Shown: positions 56,394 to 57,833 of the stretch, one piece after another
Layout: every line of letters begins with the position of its first letter
Numbering within the stretch: position 1 is the stretch's first letter
Assembly (NCBI GenBank): GCA_965371465.1
Contig: CBDUYM010000012.1
Span: 15,821-79,820 of the forward strand
Reading direction: 5' to 3'
Length of the DNA stretch: 64,000 nucleotides
Source of the DNA: an uncultured Alphaproteobacteria bacterium
GTDB lineage: Bacteria; Pseudomonadota; Alphaproteobacteria; CBDUYM01
The notes under the pieces: generated by a model
Database searches by the model: none
What the model was told of the DNA's origin: nothing
What the model saw: only the letters and a program-made list of their open reading frames with translations
Translations under genes and position numbers: made by a program

Positions 56394-57833
56394 ATGAACT
56401 TCCGTATGTTAAGCGCTGGAATTTCAACATTGCTGTTTGCCGTCTTGATGCCGGAACAGGCGTTCGCCGCCGGAAACGTGAATGTCACGACCCATGTCGA
56501 AAATCATGCCATGGAAGGTTGGACGATTTCATGCCCGGCGGGGGACGGGTATCCGGCGATCATGATCGACGTTGACAAGCTTTTCGACAGCATGACCGTC
56601 GCAGAAATGGAGCACTTCGCCGAAGTTGTCAGCCAGTTTGAATCTGAAAACGGGGTCAGCATATCGTCCGCGACGACGACAGACGACGACGGGAACGTTA
56701 CAAGTGACGTCATTCATTCTTCATCCAATGGACCGGACACCGGGCCTGGTGCCGAACTATGTGACATCGTGCGGCGCCATGCTGGAAGCAGCACGAGCAG
56801 CTCAACCGATAGCTCAGGCAGCGCCGCCACTTCAGGATCGTCGGGTACAGGAAGTGGCAGCACTGCGACAGCACCAGGACGTTCGGCCGGTGGCGCGACC
56901 CGTGGTGGCTCCACGCGCACGCGCCCAGGCCGCGAGCCTGGCCAGGCGGCTAGCTCCTCAAGTTCGTCACCACAAAGCTCAGCCTCGCAAAGTTCGGCGG
57001 GCGGTTCAGTCACCGTGACAACGCATGTCGAGAATCATGCCACGGAAGGCTGGACAATCTCATGTCCGGCAGGGGACGGGCATCCAGCGATCATGATCGA
57101 CGTTGACAGGCTTTTCGACAGTATGACAGTGGCCGAAATGGAGCATTTCGCTGATGTCGTCAGTCAGTTTGAGAGCGAAAATGGTGTCAGCATATCTTCG
57201 CGCACGGAGACAGATGACGATGGCAACGTCACCAGTGACGTGATTCATTCCTCGTCTACCGGGCCTGCCAGCGGTGCGGGTGCAGAGCTATGTGATATCG
57301 TGCGACGCCACGCAGGCGGTGCCACGAGCCGCTCAGGCGCATCCAGCGGAGCATCGGCAGACAGTTCCAGCGGGTCAGGCGAGGCAACGGCTTCCGACCC
57401 CGGTCAGGGCATCACCCGCGCTGGCAACCGGAGCCGTTCGCAGCGTGAGCCCAATGAAGGCCAAAGCGTCAGTGGCGGTGGGACACACGACGATACATGG
57501 AAGGGAGAACGCATCGCAGAGGGATCCGGCACCGCTGATGTGACCATTACTTCGTTGAGCGAAGGCGCTGTCTATGTTGGTGGCAACATCAATTGCCCCG
57601 AGATCGGCCGCAATCCCGCATTTGTAGCTGATCTCGAGAATGTTCTGGGTCAGATGAACGAACGCCAGGGGACAAGGCTTATGGATCTGATCAGGAATTT
57701 CGAAGAGCGCAATGGGGTCCAGACCGCGTCAGCGACCGCTGGCGGTGGCGATCAGGTGCGGACAGAGTCCTCTGGTTCAATCACTGGGGCTGGCAGGCAG
57801 ATCTGTAACCTTATCCGTTCTTACGCGTCGTAA
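56394..57833 (+). CDS. Secreted hypothetical protein composed of tandemly duplicated Cys-containing domains with Ser/Gly/Thr-rich linkers
   Basis: Signal peptide MNFRMLSAGISTLLFAVLMPEQAFAAG; two near-identical 104-aa units plus a divergent third unit, each with a conserved Cys pair. Confidence 0.6.
   Translation: MNFRMLSAGISTLLFAVLMPEQAFAAGNVNVTTHVENHAMEGWTISCPAGDGYPAIMIDVDKLFDSMTVAEMEHFAEVVSQFESENGVSISSATTTDDDGNVTSDVIHSSSNGPDTGPGAELCDIVRRHAGSSTSSSTDSSGSAATSGSSGTGSGSTATAPGRSAGGATRGGSTRTRPGREPGQAASSSSSSPQSSASQSSAGGSVTVTTHVENHATEGWTISCPAGDGHPAIMIDVDRLFDSMTVAEMEHFADVVSQFESENGVSISSRTETDDDGNVTSDVIHSSSTGPASGAGAELCDIVRRHAGGATSRSGASSGASADSSSGSGEATASDPGQGITRAGNRSRSQREPNEGQSVSGGGTHDDTWKGERIAEGSGTADVTITSLSEGAVYVGGNINCPEIGRNPAFVADLENVLGQMNERQGTRLMDLIRNFEERNGVQTASATAGGGDQVRTESSGSITGAGRQICNLIRSYAS
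56475..56786 (+). repeat. Intragenic tandem duplication unit 1 (104 codons)
   Basis: Unit TTHVENHAMEGWTISCPAGDGYPAIMIDVD...ELCDIVRRHAG; about 85% nucleotide identity to unit 2 (by-eye alignment). Confidence 0.7.
57006..57317 (+). repeat. Intragenic tandem duplication unit 2 (104 codons)
   Basis: Unit TTHVENHATEGWTISCPAGDGHPAIMIDVD...ELCDIVRRHAG. Confidence 0.7.

What the first reader, a model, noticed from the sequence alone, without database searches (positions are those of the whole stretch)
56394..57833. Secreted protein built from a recent internal tandem duplication of a Cys-pair domain
Two 104-aa units (56475-56786 and 57006-57317) are nearly identical at the protein level and about 85% identical at the nucleotide level, separated by Ser/Gly/Thr-rich low-complexity linkers. 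A third, diverged unit with the same Cys spacing follows. Each unit has one Cys near its start and one near its end, consistent with a disulfide-stabilised extracytoplasmic domain. I recognise no family; the gene is divergent from arfB.
Basis: seen in the sequence. Interest (0 to 1): 0.55.

Follow-up and report, generated by a model that had tools for sequence, protein, structure and literature searches.

The report
Exported three-domain protein, undescribed Cys-pair domain
This is a real, conserved gene for an exported protein made of three copies of a small, previously uncatalogued two-cysteine domain joined by floppy linkers; the internal duplication is old and strongly conserved rather than recent, and the protein's function remains unknown.

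Summary
The repeat is real. ORF 56394-57833 (+) encodes 479 aa: a Sec-type signal peptide, then three ~100-aa units starting at aa 28, 205 and 382, an exact 177-aa period, separated by two 73-aa Ser/Gly/Thr/Ala/Arg-rich linkers.

U1/U2 are 88% identical in protein but 79% in DNA, not 85%. Cys spacing is 76, 76 and 70.

"Recent duplication" is wrong. Synonymous sites between U1 and U2 are saturated (pS 0.68, dS about 1.8) while dN is 0.075 (omega 0.04). This is an old duplication under strong purifying selection. It is not an assembly artefact: independent assemblies give the same three-unit architecture.

U3 is a distant paralogue (29% to U1), closer to single-domain proteins from other bacteria.

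Only the two Cys are invariant, and they are lost together in two members, which suggests a structural disulfide and no catalysis.

Most likely function (inferred): a non-enzymatic, multivalent periplasmic binding or scaffold protein. Interest is modest.

The parts
56383..56388 (+). Shine-Dalgarno-like GGAGAG, 5 nt upstream of the ATG
   Evidence: Read directly from the sequence.
56394..57833 (+). Coding sequence, 479 aa plus stop
   Evidence: ORF list and translation. The identical protein is in public collections as P0001. Orthologues are under purifying selection: omega 0.06-0.13 in the domains, 0.21-0.45 in the linkers.
56394..56468 (+). Sec-type signal peptide, aa 1-25; predicted cleavage AFA|AG; no lipobox Cys
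   Evidence: By inspection: an n-region with Arg, a hydrophobic core (best 11-residue Kyte-Doolittle mean 2.25) and an A-x-A site. SignalP was not available.
56475..56786 (+). Unit 1 (aa 28-131), Cys47 and Cys123
   Evidence: Profile match E = 4e-57. AlphaFold2 pLDDT 93.6, beta-beta-beta-alpha-alpha-beta-beta-alpha.
56787..57005 (+). Linker 1 (aa 132-204, 73 aa), S/G/A/T/R-rich, pI 11.8, predicted disordered
   Evidence: Composition. pLDDT below 50 in the full-length model. Omega 0.21 with indels against L002.
57006..57317 (+). Unit 2 (aa 205-308), Cys224 and Cys300
   Evidence: 88% aa and 79% nt identity to unit 1; dS 1.8, dN 0.075.
57318..57536 (+). Linker 2 (aa 309-381, 73 aa), G/S/A/T/R-rich, predicted disordered
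   Evidence: Shares only a weak Arg-rich motif with linker 1 (BLASTP E = 1.1).
57537..57830 (+). Unit 3 (aa 382-479), Cys401 and Cys471; a distant paralogue
   Evidence: E = 7e-16 to unit 1. Same predicted secondary structure. Groups with single-domain P0010 and P0011.
57811..57833 (.). 23-nt convergent overlap with the 3' end of the yihY/BrkB-family gene on the minus strand
   Evidence: ORF coordinates. The same overlap is present in L002. It is absent in L001, where unit 3 is missing.

Best explanation
Shown: 56394-57833 is a genuine, selectively maintained gene. It encodes a Sec-exported, soluble 'beads-on-a-string' protein. Three copies of an uncatalogued ~100-aa alpha/beta domain (order beta-beta-beta-alpha-alpha-beta-beta-alpha) are joined by two 73-aa disordered linkers. 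The domain belongs to a rare, phylogenetically scattered family. Its usual form is a signal peptide plus one domain.

History: units 1 and 2 come from an old duplication, or an old homogenisation, of a unit resembling the second unit of the two-unit relative P0003. The event is younger than the split from that relative and several-fold older than the split from the closest relative L002. Both copies have since been held almost unchanged at the protein level. Unit 3 is a much older paralogue.

Inferred: the two invariant Cys of each unit form a structural disulfide linking the end of strand 2 to the C-terminal helix. The host appears to be a diderm proteobacterium, so the disulfide would form in the periplasm.

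Inferred function: no polar residue is conserved across the family, and tandem multiplication arose independently in several lineages. The domain is therefore most likely a non-catalytic binding or self-associating module. Three tethered copies would act multivalently on an envelope or extracellular partner that is not identified.
For: - Repeat anatomy and period.
- Homology of U3.
- Old duplication under constraint: U1-U2 pS 0.68, dS 1.8, dN 0.075, omega 0.04. Orthologous dS is 0.32-0.53. dN to the L001 units is 0.28-0.39.
- Purifying selection on orthologues, with looser linkers.
- Family: 41 representatives at E <= 1e-3 among 1.84 billion proteins, 27 of them between 122 and 147 aa.
- Only the two Cys are invariant across 25 sequences.
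- Both Cys are absent together in P0033 and P0038.
- All 42 full-length members have a signal-like N-terminus.
- Independent tandem forms: P0007, P0008, P0009.
- Structure: a single unit gives pLDDT 93.6. The full-length model gives three separate domains of the same secondary structure, linkers with pLDDT below 50, and pTM 0.28.
- Native composition: GC3 0.60, against 0.62-0.66 for neighbouring genes.
- Conserved arfB / gene / yihY synteny in L001 and L002.
- Diderm host inferred from YihY relatives. Almost all of the 80 best are titled Alpha-, Gamma-, Delta- or other Proteobacteria or related diderm groups.
Against: - There is no direct evidence of function. No partner, ligand or conserved neighbouring gene was found; contexts of six homologues share nothing.
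- The disulfide is inferred from conservation and export. Model coordinates could not be inspected.
- Signal-peptide cleavage was judged by eye.
- The full-length model rests on only 4 sequences, so its lack of inter-domain packing is weak evidence.
- The AlphaFold database could not be searched, so a structural relative among predicted models cannot be excluded.
Confidence: 0.55

Rival explanations
1. Polyprotein precursor. After export the linkers are cut by a periplasmic protease, for example at the conserved Arg-rich core (TRxGxxRxRxxREP). This would release three ~100-aa proteins equivalent to the standalone single-domain homologues. Tandem repetition would then be a dosage device.
For: - Most family members are single-domain proteins of 122-147 aa.
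- The linkers are long, disordered and exposed.
- An Arg-rich stretch is kept between the window protein and P0002/P0006, while the rest of the linker drifts.
- The two linkers are exactly the same length, 73 aa.
Against: - No protease gene is adjacent.
- Similarity between the two linkers is not significant (E = 1.1).
- The P0003 linker is 104 aa and lacks the same motif.
- There are no processing data.
Confidence: 0.15
2. Periplasmic inhibitor or immunity protein. Each domain would neutralise an incoming or endogenous hydrolase, such as a lysozyme, a protease or a secreted effector. This is how small disulfide-bonded periplasmic proteins such as Ivy, MliC/PliC or ecotin work.
For: - It has the general look of such proteins: small, exported, one disulfide, standalone genes. 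Conservation is limited to Cys, Gly, Pro and hydrophobic (likely structural) residues, and domain charge is variable, with pI 4.1-9.9 across the family.
Against: - No Pfam, NCBIfam or PDB match to any inhibitor family.
- No structural match.
- No toxin or effector gene next to any homologue examined.
- Within this lineage the domains are under strong purifying, not diversifying, selection: omega 0.04-0.13.
Confidence: 0.12
3. Redox-active or metal-binding Cys pair. The domain would act as a thiol-disulfide exchanger or metal chaperone.
For: - The two Cys are the only invariant residues.
- The second Cys sits near the N-terminal part of a helix that follows a Gly-rich loop, GPxxGxGxxLC.
Against: - The Cys are 70-76 residues apart and do not form a CxxC motif.
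- P0033 and P0038 keep the domain while lacking both Cys. That fits a dispensable structural staple better than an active site.
- No His, Asp or Met ligands are conserved.
Confidence: 0.05
4. One reading: the repeat is a very recent duplication or an assembly artefact (an expanded repeat).
For: - High protein identity of U1 and U2, 88%.
Against: - 66 nucleotide differences in 312 nt.
- Synonymous sites are saturated.
- The longest identical run is 22 nt.
- Position-specific differences between U1 and U2 are shared with P0002 and P0006 from independent assemblies.
Confidence: 0.01

Closest known systems
Unnamed family of single-domain 'hypothetical proteins', e.g. P0047 (NCBI: MAG Acidobacteria bacterium FJW39_16205), P0041 (MAG Alphaproteobacteria bacterium ACE363_14250), P0010 and P0011
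   Same: Same domain by profile search: E from 1e-24 to 1e-4 against 1.84 billion proteins. Shared features are a signal peptide directly followed by the domain, the two invariant Cys, and the motifs CP, FExxNG(V/I) and GPxxGxGxxLC.
   Different: Those proteins have one domain and are 122-147 aa. The window protein has three domains on 73-aa linkers. Identity is only 21-45%.
P0002 / P0006 (84-86% identical) and P0003 (48% by BLASTP, 56% over the alignment): orthologues in the same arfB / gene / yihY position
   Same: Same locus, same signal peptide, same U1/U2-type units and S/T/G/R-rich linkers.
   Different: P0003 has only two units, ends directly after the second, and has a 104-aa linker. 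Its two units are only 51% identical to each other.
Other tandem forms of the same domain: P0007 (two full units and part of a third in a protein that breaks off), P0009 (2 units), P0008 (3 units plus a C-terminal T6SS Hcp-like domain, PF05638)
   Same: Tandem repetition of the same exported domain.
   Different: These are independent duplications: the units cluster within each protein. Their linkers are short or differ in composition. P0008 carries an extra Hcp-like domain that the window protein lacks.
T-fold (tunnelling fold, beta-beta-alpha-alpha-beta-beta; e.g. GTP cyclohydrolase I, dihydroneopterin aldolase). Recalled from memory as a lead only.
   Same: The order of secondary-structure elements, two strands, two helices, two strands, resembles the predicted order E-E-(E)-H-H-E-E-H.
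Pfam DUF5024 (PF16427)
   Same: Weak hit of residues 76-131 to profile positions 5-60, E = 0.016, 16 bits.
   Different: The score is below the gathering cut-off (25 bits). In one search DUF5024 matched only 3 of the 25 alignment members. None of ten diverse single-domain members scanned on their own matched it. Treated as chance.

Membership tests
Any Pfam-A, NCBIfam, PADLOC or PHROG family | Score at or above the curated cut-off, or a significant E-value, against the family profile | tested here: not met
   The best Pfam hit is DUF5024 at 16 bits against a cut-off of 25. Nothing is significant in NCBIfam, PADLOC or PHROGs, for the whole protein, for single units, or for 25 family members.
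Sec-dependent exported proteins (signal peptidase I substrates) | N-terminal positive n-region, a hydrophobic h-region of about 10-15 residues, small residues at -3 and -1 of the cleavage site, and no lipobox Cys | tested here: met
   MNFR / MLSAGISTLLFAVLM / PEQAFA|AG by inspection; best 11-residue hydropathy mean 2.25. All 42 family members show the same feature. No dedicated predictor was available.
Structural-disulfide extracytoplasmic domains | Two Cys conserved as a pair, lost only together, and adjacent in the three-dimensional structure | tested here: inconclusive
   The two Cys are invariant in 25 of 25 aligned sequences. Both are absent in P0033 and P0038.
Thioredoxin-like / Dsb redox proteins | CxxC active-site motif and thioredoxin fold | tested here: not met
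   The Cys are 70-76 residues apart. No Pfam thioredoxin-type hit. No fold match.
Periplasmic lysozyme or protease inhibitors (Ivy, MliC/PliC, PliG, ecotin) | Match to the corresponding Pfam profiles or folds | tested here: not met
T6SS Hcp (PF05638) | Hcp domain present | tested here: not met
   It is present only in the distant homologue P0008, residues 455-568, 38.9 bits. It is absent from the window protein.
T-fold | Four-stranded antiparallel sheet with two antiparallel helices between strands 2 and 3; superposes on known T-fold proteins; oligomerises into a barrel | tested here: not met

The most novel reading that the evidence does not exclude
The ~100-aa unit is a new extracytoplasmic domain family with a fold that has no solved relative. 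It functions as a self-associating module. Single-domain members would form homo-oligomers, and the repeated independent tandem fusions (this protein, P0007, P0008, P0009) would be covalently linked versions of that oligomer. The extreme conservation of U1 and U2 despite saturated synonymous divergence would reflect the need for equivalent protomers. Synonymous divergence would also protect the repeat from recombinational loss: the longest identical run is 22 nt.
Probability: 0.2. Interest if true: 0.5.

Novelty: new variant of a known kind. Interest (0 to 1): 0.3.

Why it matters
The finding would add one small, rare domain family to the catalogue of bacterial envelope proteins. The family is exported, disulfide-bearing and apparently non-catalytic. 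It has a confident predicted structure that resembles no solved fold.

It is also a clean example of a general point: high protein identity between internal repeats does not mean a recent duplication. Here synonymous sites are saturated and both copies are held by selection.

Without a function or partner this does not open a long-standing question. Its value lies mainly in annotation (a candidate new Pfam/DUF entry) and as a structural-genomics target.

Tried and rejected
- **Family libraries.** Pfam, NCBIfam, PADLOC and PHROG scans of the whole protein, single units and family members gave nothing above threshold. In one search the weak DUF5024 hit matched only 3 of the 25 alignment members. 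None of ten diverse single-domain members matched it, so it was rejected as chance.
- **PDB by sequence.** Both a single sequence and a profile gave nothing.
- **Full-length word-index homologue search.** It returned only 3 clusters and scored only the 8000 candidates sharing most words. The exhaustive profile search was needed to see the family.
- **GTDB representative genomes.** Searching with the protein itself gave no hit. Searching with the neighbouring YihY gave 80 loci at 43-52% identity. None carries the domain, and none has arfB within the fetched flanks.
- **JGI metagenome contigs.** Profile A1 gave no relative. Alignments A2 and A5 were too diverse for the pattern scan.
- **Phage and plasmid collections by tblastn.** No match.
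- **Guilt by association.** Contexts of P0010, P0041, P0017, P0029, P0008 and P0047 show no shared neighbour family and no adjacent paralogue.
- **Regulatory signals.** Rfam on the whole window found no RNA family. The promoter and terminator scan was uninformative.
- **Source organism.** Exact-sequence look-ups of the window proteins returned no names, and the genes are not on record. A literature search for the sample accessions found nothing.
- **Full-length model.** The domains did not pack together. The alignment had only 4 rows, so this does not exclude self-association.

Full report
**1. Observation**

The ORF 56394-57833 (+) encodes 479 aa. The repeat finder reports one direct repeat, 56484-56783 against 57015-57314, 300 nt at 80% identity with a spacing of 531 nt.

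Of the 66 nucleotide differences, 50 fall at third codon positions. Differing codons split 44 synonymous to 12 non-synonymous.

So the repeat is real and far beyond chance.

A third unit (aa 382-479) is homologous: BLASTP U1 vs U3 gives E = 7e-16 at 27% identity, and the Cys, FExxNGV and GxGxxxC motifs are conserved.

The units start at aa 28, 205 and 382, an exact 177-aa period. Both linkers are exactly 73 aa and rich in S, G, A, T and R. Cys spacing is 76, 76 and 70.

**2. The gene is real, native and exported**

A GGAGAG motif lies 5 nt upstream of the ATG.

The N-terminus, MNFRMLSAGISTLLFAVLMPEQAFA|AG, has the n-, h- and c-regions of a signal peptidase I substrate and no lipobox.

GC3 is 0.60, against 0.62-0.66 for neighbouring genes.

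Against the closest relative (L002 / P0002, 84-86% identity), omega by region is as follows:

| Region | omega |
|---|---|
| Three domains | 0.06-0.13 |
| Linkers | 0.21-0.45 |

This is the signature of a translated, constrained protein with looser linkers.

The gene sits between arfB (55805-56227, minus strand, divergent) and a YihY/BrkB-family gene (minus strand, convergent, overlapping by 23 nt). That arrangement is kept in two other assemblies, L001 and L002.

The host is not in the GTDB species representatives. The best YihY relatives there are 43-52% identical. Almost all are titled Alpha-, Gamma-, Delta- or other Proteobacteria or related diderm groups. Without a further secretion signal, the default destination is therefore the periplasm. 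This last step is inference.

**3. The duplication is old, not recent, and not an artefact**

Nei-Gojobori estimates:

| Comparison | pS | dS | dN | omega |
|---|---|---|---|---|
| U1 vs U2 (window) | 0.68 | about 1.8 (near saturation) | 0.075 | 0.04 |
| U1 vs U1 of L002 | n/a | 0.53 | 0.041 | n/a |
| U2 vs U2 of L002 | n/a | 0.36 | 0.021 | n/a |
| U3 vs U3 of L002 | n/a | 0.32 | 0.042 | n/a |
| Window units vs units of P0003 (L001) | n/a | saturated | 0.28-0.39 | n/a |
| P0003 d1 vs d2 | n/a | saturated | 0.43 | n/a |

The differences that distinguish U1 from U2 are shared with P0002 and P0006. These include N/S and N/T at the start, DKLF/DRLF, AEVV/ADVV and GPDTGPG/GPASGAG.

The U1/U2 coalescence is therefore several-fold older than the window/L002 split and younger than the split from P0003.

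Both window units are closer to P0003 unit 2 (dN 0.30 and 0.28) than to its unit 1 (0.35 and 0.39). In a neighbour-joining tree they form a clade sister to P0003_d2. There are two possible explanations. Either an old gene conversion overwrote U1 with a U2-type copy, or a d2-like unit was duplicated independently. This is unresolved.

The longest identical nucleotide run between U1 and U2 is 22 nt. An assembler could not have collapsed or expanded the repeat, and independent assemblies give the same three-unit protein.

Copy number does vary in the clade. P0003 has two units, and its stop codon lies 3 nt from the end of yihY, so U3 is absent. P0046 lacks 27 aa of linker 2.

**4. Unit 3 is a different, older paralogue**

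U3 is 29-30% identical to U1 and U2, but 45% and 41% identical to the single-domain proteins P0010 and P0011. It groups with them in the tree.

**5. The domain family**

A profile of the eight units was scored against 1.84 billion representative proteins. It found 41 at E <= 1e-3 and 22 at E <= 1e-10.

- Most are 122-147 aa: a signal-like N-terminus followed directly by one domain.
- All 42 full-length members examined have a hydrophobic N-terminal segment.
- Source names, where present, are 'hypothetical protein', from Acidobacteria and Alphaproteobacteria MAGs.
- Tandem forms arose independently in P0007, P0008 and P0009, because their units cluster within each protein.
- A subgroup of 383-436 aa carries one or two copies plus an unknown C-terminal region.
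- In P0008 three copies precede an Hcp-like domain (PF05638, 38.9 bits).

Across 25 diverse sequences the only invariant columns are the two Cys, with one Gly nearly invariant. P0033 and P0038 lack both Cys together.

The pattern of paired conservation and paired loss in an exported protein points to a structural disulfide. The absence of any conserved polar residue argues against catalysis. Both conclusions are inferences.

**6. No known family or fold**

Pfam, NCBIfam, PADLOC, PHROGs and PDB sequence or profile searches give nothing significant.

AlphaFold2 on one unit, with only eight aligned sequences, gives pLDDT 93.6 and pTM 0.79. The secondary structure is E2-9, E12-20, E29-32, H33-37, H42-59, E62-69, E75-86, H91-102.

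| Search | Best result |
|---|---|
| Foldseek vs PDB | E = 0.05, TM <= 0.35 |
| Foldseek vs BFVD | E = 0.013, TM <= 0.37 |

The AlphaFold database libraries were unavailable.

The full-length model shows three separate domains of identical secondary structure. The linkers have pLDDT below 50 (block means 24-37), and pTM is 0.28. This is a beads-on-a-string picture, but it rests on a 4-row alignment.

**7. Context gives no functional lead**

The neighbourhoods of six homologues share no gene family, and no paralogue is adjacent.

None of 80 yihY loci from representative genomes carries the domain, and none has arfB within the fetched flanks. There are no matches in the phage or plasmid collections and no Rfam element in the window.

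**8. Mechanism**

Shown: an exported protein with three independently folding copies of an uncatalogued domain on disordered tethers, and an old duplication under strong purifying selection.

Inferred:
- One structural disulfide per unit.
- A periplasmic location.
- A non-catalytic role as a multivalent binding or self-associating module.

The recurrence of independent tandem multiplication in the family fits either avidity for a polymeric partner or covalent linkage of protomers that normally oligomerise.

The rivals have no positive evidence beyond general resemblance. They are a polyprotein precursor cut in the Arg-rich linker cores, a periplasmic inhibitor or immunity protein, and a redox or metal-binding Cys pair. 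The redox reading is weakened by members that lack both Cys.

**9. Verdict**

It is wrong about recency.

The unit is a candidate new domain family with a possibly new fold, but nothing indicates an unusual mechanism. Interest is modest, 0.3.

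Noticed in passing
window 57811-59400 (-): The YihY/BrkB-family membrane protein carries a C-terminal Rrf2/MarR-like winged-helix region (PF02082, E = 2e-6, residues 419-524). Its 3' end overlaps the studied gene by 23 nt. The same Rrf2 (weak) annotation appears on the L002 orthologue.
   Followed up: partly
L090 8001-9722 (protein P0008): A distant family member combines a signal peptide, three copies of the same Cys-pair domain and a C-terminal T6SS Hcp-like domain (PF05638, 38.9 bits). It lies next to a 934-aa protein with a Por_Secre_tail (T9SS sorting) domain. 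An Hcp-like domain behind a Sec signal peptide is unusual.
   Followed up: partly
proteins P0022, P0027, P0028, P0032, P0034, P0035, P0040, P0043, P0044: A subgroup of 383-436-aa proteins has a signal peptide, one full copy and one partial copy of the domain, and a ~200-aa C-terminal region. The four members scanned or looked up (P0022, P0027, P0028, P0034) have no Pfam match.
   Followed up: no
L001 709-1848 (protein P0003): The recorded start of this orthologue is probably about 45 codons too far upstream. The homologous MNFRVLSVG... signal peptide begins at residue 46. This relative has two units only, and its stop codon lies 3 nt from the end of yihY.
   Followed up: partly
window 53018-55702 (-): An 894-aa protein with an N-terminal PPDK_N ATP-binding domain and a C-terminal PEP-utilisers mobile domain, directly downstream of arfB on the same strand.
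   Followed up: no
window 56671-56691: A short (GAC/CGA)n trinucleotide run, 6.7 copies, encodes the Asp-rich TTTDDDG turn of unit 1. The corresponding turn is 6 residues shorter in unit 3 and shorter by one or more residues in most other family members.
   Followed up: partly
whole window: The source organism is not among the GTDB r232 species representatives scanned. Exact peptide patterns from the studied protein found no relative, and the best YihY relative is 51% identical. Exact-sequence look-ups show the window's proteins are in NCBI, ENA and Logan on a single 111,252-bp contig, without names.
   Followed up: partly
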